Virus record (IMG/VR): IMGVR_UViG_3300036861_000806
Location: 26,955-90,954 of that record
From: a virus
Strand: one strand, 5' to 3'
Length of the DNA: 64,000 bases
The notes beneath the pieces are model-generated. The model was not told where the DNA came from. It saw nothing but the letters and a program-made list of their open reading frames with translations, and ran no database searches. Below are positions 10,312 to 50,910 of the stretch, piece by piece. Every line of letters starts with the position of its first letter. The first letter of the stretch is position 1. Made by a program: the position numbers and the translations under genes.

Positions 10312-10737
10312 TCACGGGTCCGCCTCGGGCGGCAAGCCGAAGAATCCGGGCTCGATGGCGTCTGGCGCGACGAGAAGAGCATTGCCGTTCCACTCGCCCG
10401 GTATCCAGGGCGATGCCCGGCGCAGATCCGAGAATCGTCCTTCACCGGCCAGCTCCACGACACGCGAGACCTTCGCTGCCCAGCCGTCTGCGCGCCATCG
10501 AAGGGACTGTACGGCGAGCGCCCGCACGTGGGGATCATGGCCGTTTTGAGCGGCGGCGAGGATTTCGATGCCGATGCCGCCCGCGTCTGGCGTTGGCAAC
10601 GGGACGTTCGTCACGATTCGGTCACCAACTTCGCCGGCCTGTGGCGCTGTTCGGCCGTGGTATACGGCGGAGGTTCGTCCTTCATTGGCCACGATTCGAA
10701 CAAGGTCTGGAACCGCGCGGACCCGCACGGCGCTCAT
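10312..10737 (-). CDS. Hypothetical protein
   Basis: ATGA-coupled to the upstream ORF. Confidence 0.5.
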   Translation of the reverse strand: MSAVRVRAVPDLVRIVANEGRTSAVYHGRTAPQAGEVGDRIVTNVPLPTPDAGGIGIEILAAAQNGHDPHVRALAVQSLRWRADGWAAKVSRVVELAGEGRFSDLRRASPWIPGEWNGNALLVAPDAIEPGFFGLPPEADP

Positions 10738-11159
10738 AGCGGCAGCTCCGAGCCGTGAAGTAGGTCGACTAGGAGTTGGAGGTCTGCACCGAGATACGTT
10801 CGCGGCAGCGTGTGCAGACGCCCGCGCCGGATGGCCTGCTCGTAGGTGAGGCCCAGGAGCCTGGCCTCATGCGCGATCAGTTCGCGGACTTCCTCGGTGC
10901 TCAGCGGGTTCCCCTGCTCCAGCGACCGAGTGAGTGTCGTGGCGAGTTGGCGCCCGGTTCCGTCCTTCGTCCGTTTCAGCGGCATGCGGCGCTGCACAAG
11001 CCGATGCGCCGCCGCAATGATCCCCTCTGGCGTCGCCTTGCACCCCGCAAGGTTCTTATCGAGTTTCTTACGGAAGTCGCGCCGCTTCGAGAGCCAGACG
11101 AAGAATGCCAGGAGCTTGAGCTTCGCCTCGGCTGATCGCTTGCGGCGCTTCCTCTTCAT
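10734..11159 (-). CDS. Basic hypothetical protein downstream of the RAMP-like gene
   Basis: AAGGAGG RBS before ATG 11159. Confidence 0.55.
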   Translation of the reverse strand: MKRKRRKRSAEAKLKLLAFFVWLSKRRDFRKKLDKNLAGCKATPEGIIAAAHRLVQRRMPLKRTKDGTGRQLATTLTRSLEQGNPLSTEEVRELIAHEARLLGLTYEQAIRRGRLHTLPRTYLGADLQLLVDLLHGSELPL

Positions 11160-11187
11160 CGATCCTCCTTCATGCCTCGGTGTGGCG

Positions 11188-11808
11188 TTAGCGCTTGGTA
11201 CCGCTCCGCTTCGGTTTCGGCTCATCGCCGCCGTTTTCTTTCGAGACCGACCACTCCGTCACGACGAAGCGCCCATATTCCGGGCGCCACGCGCCGGTGC
11301 CAACGAGCATCCCAGCCTGCTCGGTCGCCTGCCGCACGGCCTCAGGCGGCACGGCATCATCCACGACGACGAGGCGCACGCGCAGCAGCCAGCCCGCTTT
11401 GAGTGCGGGCCGACGGATGATCGCCATCTTGCCCTTGGGGCCCGGCGGCTGACGACCCGGAACCTGATGCAAGTAATCGCGCTCGGCGACCATCTTTCCA
11501 TTCTCCGTCACAAACCGCCCCGGCTCACGCACAAACAGCACGGCGGCGAGCCTCTGTCGAAGTGGCTTACGATTGAACTTGAGCCCGGCCGCGCTGGCGC
11601 CTTCGAGGATGGTCTTCTTGACGGTCCACTGGGGCCAGTAGAGCCCCGCGTCGTCAGCGTAGGCTCGCTTCTCAGCCAGCTTCGCCCGCTGTTCGTCGGA
11701 CATGTCGCCGGAGGACTTGCCGCTTCGAAAGTTGGCCATCTCCTCGTCGGGCATTCGGTTGAACAGCATATCCGCCAGTCCTTTAAACGTCGCGTCGATC
11801 GTGTACAT
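11188..11808 (-). CDS. Stand-alone RAMP/Cas7(Csm3)-like protein (Vipr-like), 206 aa
   Basis: GGAGG RBS before ATG 11808; N-terminal strand plus GLADMLFN; LYWP..TVKKTI helix; C-terminal Gly-rich loop AGMLVGTGAWRPEYGRFVV typical of RAMP folds. Confidence 0.7.
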   Translation of the reverse strand: MYTIDATFKGLADMLFNRMPDEEMANFRSGKSSGDMSDEQRAKLAEKRAYADDAGLYWPQWTVKKTILEGASAAGLKFNRKPLRQRLAAVLFVREPGRFVTENGKMVAERDYLHQVPGRQPPGPKGKMAIIRRPALKAGWLLRVRLVVVDDAVPPEAVRQATEQAGMLVGTGAWRPEYGRFVVTEWSVSKENGGDEPKPKRSGTKR

Positions 11809-11831
11809 GCTCGCCTCCAGGGATTGAGGGT

Positions 11832-12075
11832 TCGCATCGCTGTGCTTTACTCCGCATCGCTTGGCACGGCTCGGCTGTGCTAAGCTGCGCTTCACCACGC
11901 TTTGCTGCGGCTGTTTCATCGCTTTGCTTTGCTACGCCATGCCTCGCTCGGCTCAACTCAGCCGCGCCTGGCTACGCTCCGGCTGTTTCATCGCTCTGCC
12001 TTGCTTTGCTGAGCTTGGCTTCGCTGGGCTAGACTGCGCTAGGCTTAACTCCGCCCAGCTGCGCTAGGCTGCGCT
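11832..12075 (-). ncRNA. Array of 44 RGY-NN pentamers in three units (17, 12, 15); candidate guide-RNA array
   Basis: Minus strand reads AGC-gc AGC-ct AGC-gc AGC-tg GGC-gg AGT-ta...; three triplets in unit 3 are TGC. Units are separated by AGCGATGAAACAGCCG (plus-strand copies 11908-11923 and 11980-11995). The repeat is seen directly; ncRNA status is inferred. Confidence 0.75.
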
Positions 12076-12397
12076 ACGACTCGTCCTGCCTCCTTTCCCT
12101 CCGCTCGCCGACGCAGGTAATGCCGCCAGGATCGGCGCCGACGGCATCGCGACTTGCACGAATCGGCGGAACTCCGCCTTGTCGTTCGCCAGCTCGCGCG
12201 CCAACACGAGGAAGTTGGTTTCCCGGGCGCTCTCGGTCTGCTTGCTCCGCGTCCACGCCGACAGCGCTGTCGCGGCGATTCGCGCCTTGCCGATGTCGAG
12301 GCTTGTGTGTTCAGACAGCGAGGAACTTGCGCAGCGCGGAGATAGACTCCGTGCCGAGCAGATCGAGATCAGTTTGAGGTTGACGCATTTCGATCAT
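12064..12397 (-). pseudogene. Frameshifted small ORF upstream of the pentamer array
   Basis: AAAGGAG RBS and ATG 12397 give a stop after 28 codons; protein-like reading (LSEHTSLDIGKARIAATALSAW...) continues in another frame to TAG 12064. Confidence 0.5.
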
Positions 12398-12642
12398 AGG
12401 TGATGTTCTCCTTTCAGGGATTGAGGGAGAGTTGGGGCTTTACCGCTCGAACACCGGTTCGACTTCGAGCATTTCGTCGTCGTCTCGCAGGACCCGGACA
12501 CGTTTTGCCCCGAGGCATAGCGGGCAGTCGACGTGCTCCCGTTGAAGCTGCGCCTCCGTGCAGCCAGGCACCATGCACCCTTGGTGCATGATGATCATAG
12601 GGCATGGCCCGACCCAGCCGACCCCGCCGACGCCGACCGCGC

Positions 12643-13738: not shown

Positions 13739-14659
13739 TCACGACGCGACCCGGCGAATGACTCGAAACGTCTCGCGCGTGCTCTCGGGCGACGAACCGG
13801 CGACATGGATGCCGGGGGCCGCCCCAGCTCGGCGCATAGCCGTCCAGCAAAAGAGCAAGGACATCAGCGAATCGTATTTCCCGCGCGACGGGTCCGGGTA
13901 CGCCACCACATCCTCACGGAGCGCGCAGTACGCACACGCACAGAGCGCGTCGTGCGACTTCAGCGGGGCGCGCGTGTCGTACGCGTCATCCATACAGAGT
14001 GCCCACAGCCCACGTTCCATCTCCACGGCGAGCCCCTCCAGTTCCGGCTGCTTATTCGCCCCCGTCGTCACGTGATCGAACGGGATCGACGGATCCACTG
14101 TCTGGGTCAGTGCGGAGATCGACCCCTGCGTGGCGTTGCTCTCCAGCATGAGCGTCGCGAACTGATGCCGCGCGTGGGCGTTGGCCAGCATGTGCGCGGT
14201 GTGCAGGTAGGGGCTCGAGCCCGCCCCTGCGGCCTGATTCGCCCATAGATTGCACGCCACGATCACCCGCGTCTGCCGCGACCGCTCCTCGCGCGCGGCC
14301 GGGGTCATGTCGTCGAGCGGGACATCTGCCATGAGAACCGATCGCCCGAGCGCGGCGACAGTGAGAGCGTTCCCTGGTCGGGTCTCACCAGCGGGATCGA
14401 CGCCACCGTATCGCCGCGCCAGCGGCACCCCGTCCGTCTCTCCGAGGAGCTGGGCCACTGTCACCCCGTAGCGGAGGAACTTCTCGATCCCCCGCGCGAA
14501 CAGCCGCTCCCCGTCCTCCATCGGCTGCTGCTGCATTCCGCGCCGGAACATCCGCGGGCTGTCCCGCTGCACCTGACGGAGCGAGTCTTGATTCCAGCGC
14601 GCCTCCCACAGCGGGAGGGCGAACGACTGCCCCGGCTCGAAGAGTGGTCCATGCGTCAT
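13739..14659 (-). CDS. terL: Terminase large subunit, C-terminal nuclease part
   Basis: PLWEARW, MQQQP, GGVDPAG, LESNATQ, YP..KYDSLMS (RNase H-like terminase nuclease motifs). Confidence 0.8.
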   Translation of the reverse strand: MTHGPLFEPGQSFALPLWEARWNQDSLRQVQRDSPRMFRRGMQQQPMEDGERLFARGIEKFLRYGVTVAQLLGETDGVPLARRYGGVDPAGETRPGNALTVAALGRSVLMADVPLDDMTPAAREERSRQTRVIVACNLWANQAAGAGSSPYLHTAHMLANAHARHQFATLMLESNATQGSISALTQTVDPSIPFDHVTTGANKQPELEGLAVEMERGLWALCMDDAYDTRAPLKSHDALCACAYCALREDVVAYPDPSRGKYDSLMSLLFCWTAMRRAGAAPGIHVAGSSPESTRETFRVIRRVAS

Positions 14660-14689: not shown

Positions 14690-15538
14690 TCATCGTCGGC
14701 TCCGATCACGCATCGTCGTCTGACTCTCGACCCGCGCCTCCAACTGCGCACAGTCATCGCTCACGCGCACGATCAGCCAGCGCCAGCGCTCGCCGCCCTC
14801 GGCCATTAACTTGGCATAAGCGTCTTGTTGGTGATGACGGAATCCCACCATGAGTACGCGCGTCTGGGGTTGGAGCCGCTGAAGCCAGAAGCCAATAGAC
14901 TCGTACACCTTGAGGCGCATACCGGGATTATAAATCGTGTTGTGCGCCGTAACCGGATCGTCGAACACGAGGATATCGTGCGACGCGCCGGCCCGGATGC
15001 CGATCACCGGGCTCGCCTCGAGCGTCGGATCGCGCCCAGGCGACGTGCGCTTGACGAAGATCTTATGATCAGCCCACGGCTCGCCGGGCGCTGGGACGCA
15101 CTGCGGAAACACATCGCGGAATTCTGGCATTCTCCGATCGTAGGCCAAGCTCGACGGGTCGCCGCTCTCGATATACCGCTTGACCGTCATCACGCGCTTG
15201 ACCGACTCGTCATCCGACCCCGACACGATCCGCGCGCGCAGATTGGGATCGCGCCCAATCTCCCACAGTAATCGTCCCTCCACGATTACGAGACTTTTCC
15301 CCCACTGGACCGGCCCAAGAATGCCGGCGTAATACCCCCGCGTCCAGCAGTCATCCACGAAGTCCCCAAGTAGCCGATGGAAGAGCGAGTAGTCAACCGG
15401 ACGCGCCCGGTCATCACGCAGCACGAACGGCACGAACGTGTGAAAGTCCACCCGGGATCGGAGCACGAGCTCCTGGTACGCGGCGACGCCGGCTCGAAGC
15501 ATGACATCTTCAGGCGTCGTTTGAGGATTCGTGACCAT
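14690..15538 (-). CDS. terL: Terminase large subunit, N-terminal ATPase part
   Basis: Walker A-like ILGPVQWGKS, Walker B ILVFDDP, VGFRHHQQD; follows terS; in frame with the next part across a single TGA. Confidence 0.85.
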   Translation of the reverse strand: MVTNPQTTPEDVMLRAGVAAYQELVLRSRVDFHTFVPFVLRDDRARPVDYSLFHRLLGDFVDDCWTRGYYAGILGPVQWGKSLVIVEGRLLWEIGRDPNLRARIVSGSDDESVKRVMTVKRYIESGDPSSLAYDRRMPEFRDVFPQCVPAPGEPWADHKIFVKRTSPGRDPTLEASPVIGIRAGASHDILVFDDPVTAHNTIYNPGMRLKVYESIGFWLQRLQPQTRVLMVGFRHHQQDAYAKLMAEGGERWRWLIVRVSDDCAQLEARVESQTTMRDRSRR

Positions 15539-16325
15539 CGGTCCCTGACGTGAGCGCCGGCGTCCACGGGGTCGCGACGTCGGGCGATGGATGCATCGTG
15601 AGTCGCACATAGCGATCGATCGCGCGCCGCCGATCATCCTCGGGGATCTCCCGCAGTTGATCCTCGATCGTCACTGTCACATTCACCCCCGCCCCCCCGG
15701 CCGGCATCAGATTCCGGAGCCTTGCATACAGCGCGATGGCCGCCAGCTTGTCGTGCGCTGACACCTCGAGGTTGGGCCCATAGGGGCCCTGTGTCTTGCG
15801 GAGCGTCTTGATGGCCGCCGCGATATGATCGGGCAGGTCGGCAACCGTCCCGGCCTCGAGCGCGGCGAGGGCGGCATCGATCTCGCGCGCCCCGGCGAAC
15901 GCGATCGCCCCGGTCTCTGCGGCGAGGCGCTCTACAGTCGCCCCGCTGGCCTCGAGCGTGCGCTCCATCGCCTCCTGCACATCCGGCAGGCGCAGCAGTC
16001 GGCTGCCGATGACCATGAGGCTCGGATTGCCTCCGCGGTAACCGGCCGCGCGCGCCGACTCCATTCCGTTGCCAGCCGTTGGCCCGACGAGATACGCCCG
16101 GATGAATCGTCGTTTGCGCACCGCCGCCCGCGTGCTCTGCCGGCTGCGCTGCGGCGCACTGTCCCGAAGCGGCGAGAGTGCATGGCCCGCTTTCGCTCGC
16201 TTCAACGCGGCGTCAATCTCCTCGATCTGCGCCACCGCGTGGGCGCGGAGCTTCTTCAGATCCTCTGGCGCCAGCCGCGCGATCTGCTCGCGCTCGGCCC
16301 ATTGGGCGTCAGACTCTTGCGCCAA
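15510..16325 (-). CDS. terS: Terminase small subunit
   Basis: RRFIRAYL..NGMESARAAGY..GSRLLRLPDV HTH; HDKLAAI motif. Confidence 0.85.
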   Translation of the reverse strand: MAQESDAQWAEREQIARLAPEDLKKLRAHAVAQIEEIDAALKRAKAGHALSPLRDSAPQRSRQSTRAAVRKRRFIRAYLVGPTAGNGMESARAAGYRGGNPSLMVIGSRLLRLPDVQEAMERTLEASGATVERLAAETGAIAFAGAREIDAALAALEAGTVADLPDHIAAAIKTLRKTQGPYGPNLEVSAHDKLAAIALYARLRNLMPAGGAGVNVTVTIEDQLREIPEDDRRRAIDRYVRLTMHPSPDVATPWTPALTSGTDGHESSNDA

Positions 16326-49590: not shown

Positions 49591-50910
49591 TCATGTGAGC
49601 ACCGACGGCGCCGTCCCCATCCCATTCCGCCACCGGAGCGCCGCCTCGACCGTGCGGCAGTCGGGATGCACGCCCTCGATGTGGAAGACGCCGATAGAGG
49701 GGTTCCGCATCTTGAGATAGGGCCGGACGCGCCCGTCGCCCAGATCGAGCGAGAGAAGCTCATACATGTCGCCTTGCCGATGAAGCACCTTGGCGCCCAG
49801 GGCATCGCACACCCGCTCGATCCCGATCTTCCGCACACGCTCACGCCGGATTTCCGCGTTCGTGTCCTTCAAGACGTCGCGGGGATCAAGCCGCTCGGCC
49901 GGCGTTTCTACCAACTCGCGCGGGACGGTCACCCCGTGCAATCGATAGATCCCCCACGCATCCGCGAACTGTAGGGCCATGCCGGTGTCGTTGTGGAGCT
50001 GGCCGCGTTCATCGCGTGTGAGCACTTTCGGGCGGTCGGAGACCATCACGAACTTCCGGTGTGGCCACCACCAACAGGCCGAGCGCGCGGTGTTCTCGTA
50101 GGCGATGGCACGGAGCCACATATCGCCCGGCAGATCCAAATGGCAGACCTCGCGGAAGAAACTGGCCATCACGGGGTCGGCGTACCAATACCCGCCACCG
50201 ATCCAGAACTGACCGCCAATGTAATGTGTATAGGCGCTGCGCACGGCTCTGTCCACGGCGCTGCGCACGGCGCTGTCCACGGCGCTGCCCACGGCGCTGT
50301 CCACGGCGCTGTCCACGGCGCTGCGCACGGCGCTGTACACGGCGCTGTCCACGGCGCTGTGCACGGCGCTGTCCACGGCGCTGCCCACGGCGCTGTCCAC
50401 GGCGCTGTCCACGGCGCTGCGCACGGCTCTGTCCACGGCGCTGCGCACGGCTCTGTACACGGCGCTGTCCACGGCGCTGTGCACGGCGCTGTCCACGGCG
50501 CTGCCCACGGCGCTGCGCACGGCTCTGTCCACGGCGCTGCGCACGGCGCTGTCCACGGCGCTGCCCACGGCGCTGTCCACGGCGCTGTCCACGGCGCTGT
50601 CCACGGCGCTGCGCACGGCTCTGTCCACGGCGCTGCGGCTGTCGCCGCGCGCCGGCATCCAGCCAGTGAGGAGCAACGACGCACAGGGCGCCGCGAAGGC
50701 CAGCACGAGCGGTGACGGCACACGCACGATCCGCTCCGGCTTCGGCAGATTCGCAAAGGCGTAGCATTCGAGCGCCGCCCGCTCGAACGTTGGCCAGTCG
50801 GCCTCCCCGGTCTGCAGCCCGATCGCGGTCCAGCGCTCGACCCATTCTCCGAAGCGGGCGCGTTCCGCCTCGGAGAGTGACGTCAGGCGCTTACGGGGTC
50901 GTGCCACCAT
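49591..50910 (-). CDS. DUF6745-type protein with tetrapeptide repeat
   Basis: CWWWP..FVMVSDRP..GQLHNDTGMALQFADAWGIYRLHGV; NAEIRR; YLKMRNPS. Confidence 0.75.
   Translation of the reverse strand: MVARPRKRLTSLSEAERARFGEWVERWTAIGLQTGEADWPTFERAALECYAFANLPKPERIVRVPSPLVLAFAAPCASLLLTGWMPARGDSRSAVDRAVRSAVDSAVDSAVDSAVGSAVDSAVRSAVDRAVRSAVGSAVDSAVHSAVDSAVYRAVRSAVDRAVRSAVDSAVDSAVGSAVDSAVHSAVDSAVYSAVRSAVDSAVDSAVGSAVDSAVRSAVDRAVRSAYTHYIGGQFWIGGGYWYADPVMASFFREVCHLDLPGDMWLRAIAYENTARSACWWWPHRKFVMVSDRPKVLTRDERGQLHNDTGMALQFADAWGIYRLHGVTVPRELVETPAERLDPRDVLKDTNAEIRRERVRKIGIERVCDALGAKVLHRQGDMYELLSLDLGDGRVRPYLKMRNPSIGVFHIEGVHPDCRTVEAALRWRNGMGTAPSVLT
50230..50637 (-). repeat. 12-bp coding tandem repeat, ~34 x [D/R/G/H/Y][S/R]AV
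   Basis: Unit ~ACAGCGCCGTGG repeated in frame. Confidence 0.95.

What the first reader, a model, noticed from the sequence alone, without database searches (positions are those of the whole stretch)
11188..12075. Candidate non-CRISPR RNA-guided system: lone RAMP/Cas7-like gene plus RGY-NN pentamer array
Seen: a 206-aa gene with a RAMP-like Gly-rich C-terminal loop (GMLVGTGAWRPEYGRF) is directly preceded by 44 pentamers of a near-constant triplet (AGC, sometimes AGT/GGC/GGT/TGC) and a freely varying dinucleotide. They form three units of 17, 12 and 15 separated by AGCGATGAAACAGCCG. NN strings: U1 GC CT GC TG GG TA CT GC CT CC GA CA TC AA AA AG GA; U2 GT CA GC TG TG CG GA AT GT AA AA GA; U3 AA GT GA GC TT AC CG CG CA GA GG AA AC GA GA. 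No cas1/2, cas nuclease or CRISPR array was recognised in the window. Established: Cas7-family RAMPs polymerise on guide RNA with a fixed nucleotide period. Inference: one subunit binds each constant triplet and the NN pairs spell a non-contiguous target, each unit being one guide, perhaps against competing phages. As I recall it, this resembles the reported phage VIPR systems (GGY/NN), which I cannot verify here; this one would be an AGY-dominant variant.
Basis: partly seen in the sequence, partly recalled or inferred. Interest (0 to 1): 0.95.

Follow-up and report, generated by a model that had tools for sequence, protein, structure and literature searches.

The report
Phage VIPR system with AGY-NN guides
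A complete 91-kb phage genome carries a VIPR system, the CRISPR-like RNA-guided DNA silencer first described in 2026: a small Cas7-like protein plus three guide RNAs built of five-letter repeats; it is real, but it belongs to a published family and differs only in spelling its constant letters A-G-Y instead of G-G-Y.

Summary
On the minus strand, 44 pentamers lie in three units of 17, 12 and 15 (12075-11832), directly upstream of a 206-aa gene (11808-11188). Position 2 is G in 44/44, position 3 is C/T in 44/44, position 1 is A in 34/44, and the NN positions use all 16 dinucleotides. No other such run exists in the 90,954-bp genome.

The protein is a Vipr homolog. Its only PDB sequence hit is the SUSP1 Vipr protein (profile E 2.5e-11; HHalign 97.9%). 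The AF2 model has a Cas7/Csm3 fold (Z 10-12). Nearly all homologous loci carry same-strand pentamer arrays with unrelated NN.

This is therefore a member of the VIPR family (bioRxiv 2026.04.26.720920, .720927, 2026.10.15.759431), in a virus record with terminal repeats, between terminase and portal. This scan already noted VIPR in at least 352 genomes.

- **Scaffold:** AGY goes with Ala/Asn where SUSP1 reads G1 with D177/H17. Only 2-3 independent events support this.
- **Accessory gene:** a conserved ~100-aa helical gene, unrelated to vap1, sits immediately upstream of the array and is frameshifted here.
- **Unit ends:** units end in a 12-nt linker, not a long structured tail.
- **Targets:** none found.

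Non-GGY scaffolds are already in print. Verdict: new member of a known kind, modest interest.

The parts
12311..12397 (-). N-terminal piece (28 codons plus a TGA stop) of the conserved ~100-aa accessory (vap-like) gene
   Evidence: Its translation aligns with the N-terminal 'SALRKFL' region of homologs in L017 and L018. An in-frame TGA at 12313-12311 ends it.
12064..12312 (-). C-terminal 82 codons of the same accessory gene, in another frame (frameshift at about 12311-12313). Its stop codon lies inside the first pentamers of U1.
   Evidence: blastp to 17 vipr-adjacent ORFs of about 95-105 aa. Alignments A2/A3. The family has at least 80 clusters of about 91-110 aa, all unnamed. No Pfam, PHROG or PDB hit. 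All-helical AF2 model of the L017 homolog, pLDDT 81. HHalign to SUSP1 vap1 gives probability 0.1%.
12415..12427 (-). 13-mer CCCTCAATCCCTG just upstream of the accessory gene's ribosome-binding site
   Evidence: There are exactly two exact copies in the 64-kb window, each directly before the RBS of one of the two VIPR genes. Function unknown.
11991..12075 (-). vrRNA unit U1: 17 RGY-NN pentamers
11979..11990 (-). 12-nt conserved linker (TGAAACAGCCGG); shifts the pentamer register by +2
   Evidence: It is repeated at 11918-11907 with one change.
11919..11978 (-). vrRNA unit U2: 12 pentamers
11907..11918 (-). Second 12-nt linker (TGAAACAGCCGC); +2 register shift
11832..11906 (-). vrRNA unit U3: 15 pentamers
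11818..11830 (-). Second copy of the 13-mer CCCTCAATCCCTG, just upstream of the vipr ribosome-binding site
11188..11808 (-). vipr gene, 206 aa: minimal Cas7-like RAMP. The start at 11808 matches all homologs' 'MY..I' start and follows a GGAGG.
   Evidence: phmmer against PDB: the only hit is 36pp_D 'SUSP1 Vipr protein', E 4.6e-4. Profile E 2.5e-11 over residues 2-188. HHalign 97.9%, E 4e-13. phrog_4652 E 1.4e-10. AF2 pLDDT 87.8. Foldseek gave 107 hits at E<=1e-3; the rows listed were all Cas7-type RAMPs (Csm3, type VII and type IV Cas7, Cas7-11). VIA-align Z 10-12.

Best explanation
This is a VIPR (Viral Interference Programmable Repeat) system carried by a complete tailed-phage genome, inserted between the large terminase and portal genes. 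All parts lie on the minus strand in the order accessory gene, three-unit vrRNA array, vipr.

Inferred mechanism, by homology with the SUSP1 and P. fulva systems:
- The array is transcribed with its flanking genes and cut into three vrRNAs of roughly 70-100 nt.
- One Vipr protomer binds each pentamer, forming a helical filament.
- The constant A/G-G-Y bases are flipped out and held by two neighbouring protomers. The NN bases are presented for pairing.
- The filament reads double-stranded DNA by the 'NNx' code (two paired bases, one skipped), forms an R-loop triplex and blocks transcription of a competing mobile element.

The 12-nt linkers break the pentamer register by +2, so they probably delimit separate filaments.

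This subclade spells the scaffold AGY rather than GGY. The two residues that read G1 in SUSP1 (H17, D177) are Asn17 and Ala173 here, while the G2 and Y3 contacts (R133, W174, R175) are kept. That gives a structural reason for the relaxed first letter.

Shown here: homology, fold, array anatomy, conservation of the module in relatives, viral context and absence of self-targets. Inferred: transcription, processing, filament formation, the skip rule and silencing. Unknown: the targets, and whether the frameshifted accessory gene still works.
For: - **Homology to a solved, functionally tested Vipr:**
- **Cas7-family fold with a confident model:**
- **Array statistics and uniqueness in the genome:**
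- **Conservation in relatives:** most of the roughly 55 distinct homologous loci carry pentamer arrays next to the gene on the gene's strand, with constant triplets and unrelated NN.
- **Strand:** in GGT-type relatives the periodic xGY signal is on the gene's strand only (last column). Here position 3 is strictly a pyrimidine on the gene's strand, as the published Y3 pocket requires, whereas the opposite strand would place a purine there in 3 of 44 units.
- **Accessory gene:** a conserved gene sits immediately upstream of the array in 17 loci.
- **Viral context:** virus record with direct terminal repeats, 100% complete; portal and terminase neighbours.
- **No self-target by the 1-nt skip rule**, as the papers report for their systems (paper text).
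- **Published mechanism and residue roles:**
Against: - No target was found in the phage itself, in 79 related loci, or by exact 9-10-unit seeds in the viral and prokaryote genome collections.
- The accessory gene is broken by a frameshift in this assembly.
- No sigma-70-like promoter was predicted nearby.
- There is no long structured 3' tail like the SUSP1 pseudoknot (fold z = -0.56; Rfam found nothing).
- In SUSP1 the D177A change abolishes silencing, so an Ala at this site would be inactivating unless the RNA scaffold has co-changed. That co-change is what the arrays suggest, but it is not shown.
- There are no expression or binding data.
Confidence: 0.9

Rival explanations
1. It is a decaying or inactive VIPR remnant. 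The protein and array are inherited, but the system no longer works in this phage because the accessory gene is frameshifted and the guides have no current targets.
For: - The accessory gene is split: a 28-codon piece ends at an in-frame TGA, and the rest lies in another frame. All 80 family members found are intact proteins of about 91-169 aa.
- No targets were found.
Against: - The vipr ORF is intact, with all family-invariant residues.
- The array is clean: G2 44/44 and Y3 44/44.
- In SUSP1, vap1 only enhances protection and is not required for repression.
- A single-base indel in a metagenome assembly is a common artefact.
- My target search needed 18-20 consecutive exact informative matches, so it was insensitive.
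Confidence: 0.07
2. The pentamer tract is not a guide RNA but something else with 5-nt periodicity: a protein-binding DNA tract, a coding low-complexity region, or a replication or packaging signal that happens to sit beside a RAMP-fold gene.
For: There is no direct evidence of transcription here. An ATG at 11919 opens a 243-aa frame that runs through U3 into the gene.
Against: - A 5-nt period is incompatible with coding constraint.
- All homologs start at the position equivalent to 11808.
- The same gene-plus-array association recurs across dozens of divergent loci with wholly different NN.
- In SUSP1 such tracts are shown to be RNAs bound by Vipr.
Confidence: 0.02
3. The system targets RNA (transcripts of a rival) rather than double-stranded DNA.
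For: SUSP1 Vipr filaments can pair the guide with ssRNA in vitro. The nearest fold matches are RNA-targeting type III/VII Cas7 proteins.
Against: In SUSP1, complete filaments and silencing depend on the DNA triplex, and either DNA strand can be targeted. The basic residue aligned with K33 is kept here as R28. No nuclease or effector partner is present.
Confidence: 0.01

Closest known systems
Type II VIPR of Escherichia phage SUSP1 (Vipr ALH47069.1, vap1 ALH47068.1, four vrRNAs; PDB 36pp; bioRxiv 10.64898/2026.04.26.720920, .720927, 2026.10.15.759431)
   Same: - Homologous Vipr protein of about 200 aa (HHalign 97.9%, 22% identity).
- G-loop motif G-x-G-x-W-R-P-x-[YF]-G-R-F, with the thumb Arg (R133 = R138) and the Trp/Arg pair (W174/R175 = W178/R179) kept.
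- Tandem pentamers with three constant and two hypervariable letters, 12-17 per unit, on the gene's strand.
- Two-gene locus in a phage, with no self-targets.
   Different: - The scaffold is AGY (A 77% at position 1), not GGY.
- The G1-reading residues H17/D177 are N17/A173 here.
- The accessory protein is unrelated to vap1 (HHalign 0.1%), about 100 aa rather than 146 aa, and lies upstream of the array.
- All three units form one array between the two genes, whereas SUSP1 has intergenic vrRNA regions on both sides of the vipr-vap1 pair.
- Units are separated by a 12-nt linker instead of a roughly 40-nt pseudoknotted tail.
- Only 22% identity.
Non-canonical VIPR arrays in print: 'YNNNG/NNNGG/NNNNG' repeats (methods of 10.64898/2026.04.26.720920) and the 21 clusters with GAC/NN, CAC/NN, WGT/NN and TGH/NN motifs (10.64898/2026.10.21.760802)
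   Same: Vipr-fold gene next to a 5-nt periodic array whose fixed trinucleotide departs from GGY. AGY-NN read as Y-NN-A-G fits 'YNNNG' and is close to WGT/NN.
   Different: AGC/NN is not named in the text I could read; the figures and data tables are not held. Neither paper's text links the scaffold change to the G-loop Asp, nor describes this accessory family.
Class 1 CRISPR backbone subunits (Cas7 family: Csm3, Cmr4, type VII Cas7, Cas7-11)
   Same: RRM core, Gly-rich loop and thumb hairpin. The proteins polymerise on a guide with a fixed period and flip out bases at regular intervals (fold Z 10-12; mechanism).
   Different: - No CRISPR repeat-spacer array and no second RRM domain.
- Period of 5 nt with three flipped bases, rather than 6 nt with one.
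- The guide information is non-contiguous.
- Sequence identity is only about 10-14%.

Membership tests
VIPR system | Vipr protein homologous to the characterised Vipr proteins | tested here: met
   The only PDB sequence hit is the SUSP1 Vipr protein: E 4.6e-4 for the single sequence and E 2.5e-11 full length with the family profile. HHalign against the SUSP1 gene product gives probability 97.9%, E 4e-13.
VIPR system | Minimal RAMP architecture: single RRM core, glycine-rich loop, thumb, helical bundle; no second RRM | tested here: met
   AF2 model, pLDDT 87.8, 206 aa. Cas7-family matches cover residues 1-195 at Z 10-12 and Foldseek E down to 2.7e-6. The G-loop and thumb Arg align with SUSP1.
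VIPR system | Adjacent tandem pentamer array: conserved trinucleotide alternating with hypervariable NN, about 9-16 units per vrRNA, on the vipr strand | tested here: met
   Three units of 17, 12 and 15 pentamers. NN entropy is 1.9 bits against 0-0.97 for the triplet. The array is unique in the genome, and relatives have the same arrangement.
VIPR system | Scaffold trinucleotide is GGY | tested here: not met
   G2 is 44/44 and Y3 is 44/44, but position 1 is G in only 7/44 and A in 34/44. The papers allow 'a related consensus' (YNNNG; WGT/NN), so this makes it a scaffold variant, not a non-member.
VIPR system | Invariable, structured 3' tail after each repeat tract (pseudoknot in the SUSP1 clade) | tested here: inconclusive
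   Only a conserved end (AGCAA AGCAA .. AGCGA) plus a 12-nt linker is present. The array RNA folds no better than shuffles (z = -0.56). No Rfam family or hammerhead was found. Relatives of this subclade also have short unit terminators. The paper describes other architectures (staggered, ribozyme-interspersed) that I could not compare because the figures are not held.
VIPR system | Accessory vap gene in the locus | tested here: inconclusive
   A conserved ~100-aa helical protein always lies directly upstream of the array. It is unrelated to vap1. Whether it equals one of vap2-6 cannot be told from the held text. It is frameshifted in this window.
VIPR system | Viral or proviral genome context, no CRISPR array | tested here: met
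   90,954-bp virus record with direct terminal repeats. The locus lies between terminase and portal. No repeat-spacer array in the genome.
VIPR system | vrRNAs expressed and bound by Vipr | not testable with these tools
   Needs small-RNA sequencing and pull-down.
VIPR system | Guides match targets in competing mobile elements by the 1-nt skip (NNx) rule, and no self-targets | tested here: inconclusive
   No self-target. Seeds of 9-10 exact units returned hits at chance numbers, in unrelated housekeeping genes or an ssRNA phage, and they do not extend. The search could not tolerate mismatches, so absence is weak evidence.
CRISPR-Cas class 1 effector | CRISPR repeat-spacer array and further cas genes (cas5/6/8/10, cas1/2) | tested here: not met
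   No repeat-spacer array in the genome. The neighbours are packaging genes and small unnamed ORFs. I made no exhaustive cas scan of all ORFs.

The most novel reading that the evidence does not exclude
The AGY subclade is a natural re-tuning of scaffold recognition. Replacing the G1-reading pair (His17/Asp177 of SUSP1) by Asn/Ala (or Gly) switches the protein from GGY to AGY guides. This would give Vipr-vrRNA pairs orthogonal to GGY systems, so rivals' solo or decoy vrRNAs could not load onto this Vipr. A previously undescribed ~100-aa helical accessory protein, whose gene always abuts the 5' end of the array, would take part in array expression or processing.
Probability: 0.3. Interest if true: 0.5.

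Novelty: new member of a known kind. Interest (0 to 1): 0.28.

Why it matters
It adds one clean, complete-genome example to a family that is months old in the literature, and it shows that the first-stage reader can recognise VIPR from raw sequence.

The useful extras are specific and testable:
- A natural D-to-A change at the residue whose alanine mutant kills SUSP1 VIPR is paired with a G-to-A change in the RNA scaffold. This points to a simple rule for engineering orthogonal Vipr/guide pairs.
- An unnamed accessory protein family is tightly coupled to the array.
- The array format is compact, with 12-nt linkers.

None of this changes the picture of what VIPR is.

Tried and rejected
**Family and fold searches**
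- Pfam gave nothing for Vipr, the accessory protein or the neighbours.
- tblastn of Vipr against 50,697 GenBank phages gave no match.
- Rfam on the array gave only chance-level hits. The sigma-70 scan found no promoter-like site, and the terminator-like sites were at the chance level.
- Accessory protein: no PDB sequence hit, no Foldseek match at E<=0.001. The ESM Atlas gave only unnamed viral clusters and a weak HTH lead at 0.90-0.91.

**Target hunting by the NNx rule**
- Own genome: nothing above shuffled guides at skip 0, 1 or 2. The skip-3 perfect hits are the arrays themselves.
- All 79 related loci: nothing above null.
- Viral collection, seeds U1 units 1-9 and 5-13, U2 1-9, U3 1-9 and 3-11: 3, 0, 1, 1 and 4 hits. 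None extends.
- The four U3 hits are one element seen four times. It is a 3.7-kb contig with the three-ORF layout of a levivirus-like ssRNA phage (layout inferred from ORF order and sizes; no family search was run). The match falls in the wrong frame of its first gene. Rejected.
- Prokaryote genome collection: 2, 7 and 8 hits, against roughly 1, 17 and 17 expected by chance. The best extensions were 27/34 and 23/30 (the best in the viral collection was 24/30, L085). The hits lie in unrelated genes of unrelated organisms: ABC transporter, carboxyl transferase, histidine kinase, FIST, DUF4012, Fe-S protein. Rejected.
- The genome search 'relatives' is not available for a virus record, so no host-directed, mismatch-tolerant scan was possible.

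**Covariation test**
- The G-loop residue against scaffold letter 1 shows a clear pattern. With Asp (27 loci) the mean A fraction is 0.09; with Ala/Gly (9 loci) G1 is lost in all.
- On the tree this is only 2-3 independent changes and the sign test cannot reach significance. It stays a hypothesis.
- Ser at this site mostly keeps G1.

**Other**
- The VIPR type (I-VII) could not be assigned. The type definitions are in figures and data files that are not held.

Full report
**1. What is there**

The minus strand of 12075-11832 consists of 44 pentamers in three blocks.
- U1 is 12075-11991 (17 units), U2 is 11978-11919 (12 units) and U3 is 11906-11832 (15 units).
- The blocks are separated by two near-identical 12-nt linkers, TGAAACAGCCG followed by G or C.
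- Position 2 of the pentamer is G in 44/44 and position 3 is C or T in 44/44.
- Position 1 is A in 34, G in 7 and T in 3.
- Positions 4-5 have 1.9 bits of entropy each and use all 16 dinucleotides.
- Each linker shifts the pentamer register by +2 (97 and 72 nt between unit starts).
- The last units of each block are alike: AGCAA AGCAA (GGCAG) AGCGA in U1 and U2, AGTAA AGCAC AGCGA in U3.
- These three runs are the only runs of 8 or more such units on either strand of the whole 90,954-bp genome. Twenty shuffled genomes never exceeded 8 units.

Twenty-three bases downstream of U3, after a GGAGG, starts a 206-aa gene (11808-11188). The longer 243-aa frame from 11919 runs through U3 and is not supported, because every homolog starts at the residue equivalent to 11808.

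**2. The protein is a Vipr**

- Pfam finds nothing. PHROGs gives the unnamed phrog_4652, E 1.4e-10.
- Against all PDB sequences the single hit is 36pp_D, 'SUSP1 Vipr protein'. The E-value is 4.6e-4 for the sequence alone, aligned over the G-loop. It is 2.5e-11 over residues 2-188 with a profile of 12 homologs.
- I fetched the SUSP1 locus from GenBank record KT454805. HHalign of the family profile against its Vipr gives probability 97.9%, E 4e-13, 169 columns and 22% identity.
- An AlphaFold2 model (pLDDT 87.8, pTM 0.79) matches Cas7-family RAMPs only. Foldseek gave 107 PDB chains at E<=0.001; the rows listed were all Cas7-type RAMPs (Csm3, type VII and type IV Cas7, Cas7-11). VIA-align gives Z 10-12 over about 160 residues to Cmr4, Csm3, type VII Cas7 and gRAMP.
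- The family is large: 4,388 representative clusters at E<=0.001.

**3. The module is conserved in relatives**

- I fetched 79 loci encoding relatives at 22-55% identity from virus, metagenome and genome collections.
- A strand-blind detector of 5-nt periodicity finds arrays directly beside the gene in most of them.
- In register on the gene's strand the constant triplet is GGC or GGT in most loci. It is AGC in a subclade that includes the window and its nearest relatives L017 and L018. It is GAC/GAT in two loci, L029 and L042.
- The NN content and the number of units differ completely even between the closest relatives.
- In GGT-type loci the signal is on the gene's strand only. In the window the gene-strand reading gives a strict pyrimidine at position 3, while the opposite strand would place a purine there in 3 of 44 units. 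So the array is read on the vipr strand.

**4. An accessory gene, broken here**

- A blastp of the window's neighbours against all ORFs of the related loci found one further conserved gene. It encodes a protein of about 95-105 aa that always ends at, or a few bases into, the first pentamers of an array.
- The gene order is either accessory-array-vipr (window, L017, L018, L007, L034) or vipr-accessory-array (L038, L043, L044, L046, L024).
- The family has at least 80 clusters, nearly all of 91-139 aa and unnamed. It has no Pfam, PHROG or PDB sequence match.
- A model of the L017 member is a helical hairpin plus two short helices (pLDDT 81), with no significant structural match. The ESM Atlas places it among unnamed viral clusters with a weak HTH lead.
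- It is unrelated to SUSP1 vap1 (HHalign probability 0.1%).
- In the window the gene is split. Codons 1-28 (12397-12311) end at an in-frame TGA. The remaining 82 codons continue in another frame from 12312 to the stop at 12066-12064.
- The sequence at the break has no slippery codon of the prfB type. I therefore read it as a real frameshift or, just as likely, an assembly indel.

**5. Context**

- The window is bases 26955-90954 of a 90,954-bp virus record with direct terminal repeats, rated 100% complete, with 64.8% G+C.
- The locus lies in a long minus-strand gene run between the large terminase (15637-13739, in two ORFs) and the portal gene (10125-8605).
- The 142-aa ORF downstream of vipr (11162-10734) has no family hit and no counterpart in other VIPR loci.
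- No CRISPR-like array exists in the genome.
- An exact 13-mer, CCCTCAATCCCTG, occurs twice in the window: just before the RBS of the accessory gene and just before that of vipr.

**6. How it most likely works**

The published work was read.
- It shows that SUSP1 and P. fulva Vipr proteins bind one pentamer per protomer.
- G1, G2 and Y3 are flipped into protein pockets, and N4N5 are presented for pairing with dsDNA in which every third base is skipped.
- The result is an R-loop triplex that silences transcription of rival phages or satellites.
- G1 is read by H17 and D177, G2 by R138 and W178, and Y3 by a pocket that includes R179. D177A and R138A abolish silencing.

By the alignments the window's protein keeps R133 (=R138), W174 (=W178) and R175 (=R179). 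It has N17 for H17 and A173 for D177. That is exactly the pattern expected if G2 and Y3 are still read but G1 is not, and the array shows exactly that.

Across 46-55 loci:
- Asp at this site (27 loci) goes with G at position 1, with a mean A fraction of 0.09.
- Ala or Gly (9 loci) always goes with loss of G1.
- Ser is mostly G-retaining.
- On a tree of the proteins these states changed only 2-3 times. One change is the 9-locus subclade that holds the window; another is the separate L010/L012 pair. The association therefore cannot be tested statistically and remains a hypothesis.

The array RNA has no unusual predicted structure (z = -0.56) and no Rfam match. This fits a single-stranded guide but gives no sign of the pseudoknotted tail of the SUSP1 clade. 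Relatives in this subclade also end their units with a short conserved terminator, AGCGA followed by TGA.., AGATTTCC or GGTTC plus 2 nt.

**7. Targets**

I applied the published NNx rule on both strands.
- There is no self-target, as the papers report for their systems, and no match in the 79 related loci.
- Exact seeds of 9-10 units in the viral and prokaryote genome collections returned hits in the numbers expected by chance.
- None extended into the rest of the guide.
- The hits lie in unrelated housekeeping genes, or in a small contig with the layout of an ssRNA phage, in the wrong frame.
- The tools cannot scan the collections with mismatches, and no host is known. The failure therefore says little, and the targets remain unknown.

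**8. Comparison and novelty**

This is a member of the VIPR family, described in April-October 2026.
- The discovery paper already mentions alternative YNNNG repeats, seven types and six vap families.
- A later preprint reports 21 clusters with non-GGY scaffolds, including GAC/NN and WGT/NN.
- Earlier notes of this scan record VIPR-type findings in at least 352 genomes, including other scaffold variants.
- I could not assign a type because the definitions are in figures and data files that are not held.

Three things here are not in the text I could read: the link between the AGY scaffold and the Asp-to-Ala change, this accessory family and its fixed position at the head of the array, and the compact 12-nt-linker format.

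**9. Verdict**

It is a new member of a known kind. Interest is modest (0.28). Confidence that it is a VIPR system is 0.9. Whether it is active in this phage, and against what, is open.

Noticed in passing
window 12311-12313 (minus strand): The conserved accessory gene upstream of the array is interrupted by an in-frame TGA and continues in another frame. All 80 homologs found are intact. It may be a real frameshift or an assembly indel.
   Followed up: partly
window 12415-12427 and 11818-11830 (minus strand): The exact 13-mer CCCTCAATCCCTG occurs only twice in the window, each time directly before the ribosome-binding site of one of the two VIPR genes. It could be a shared regulatory or processing site. 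It is not seen before vipr in L018.
   Followed up: partly
L029:52-404 and L042:805-986: Two related Vipr loci have arrays with a GAC/GAT constant triplet (G kept at position 1, A at position 2). This matches the GAC/NN class mentioned in preprint 10.64898/2026.10.21.760802.
   Followed up: no
L012:4523-4860, L010:4463-4677, L006:4511-4822: Other AGY-type arrays end each unit with a short conserved terminator: AGCGA-GGTTC plus 2 nt in L012, AGCAG-AGATTTCC in L006. Units abut with a register shift. These may be the 'staggered' architecture of the discovery paper.
   Followed up: no
window 13739-14659 and 14690-15637 (minus strand): The large terminase matches phrog_38 in two separate ORFs: profile positions 267-469 in one and 486-560 in the other. 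The gene looks split.
   Followed up: no
window about 50233-50650 (genome 77187-77600): A tandem repeat with a 24-nt period (unit beginning GGCGCTGCGCACGGCTCTGTCCAC), in many copies. I did not check whether it is coding or not.
   Followed up: no
window 17604, 33517, 58828 (plus strand): The 20-nt word GTCAACCACGCGGTAGACGG occurs three times, far apart in the genome. It could be a dispersed regulatory motif.
   Followed up: no
window 10734-11162 (minus strand): The 142-aa ORF directly after vipr has a very basic N-terminus (MKRKRRKRS..). It has no family hit and no counterpart in other VIPR loci.
   Followed up: partly
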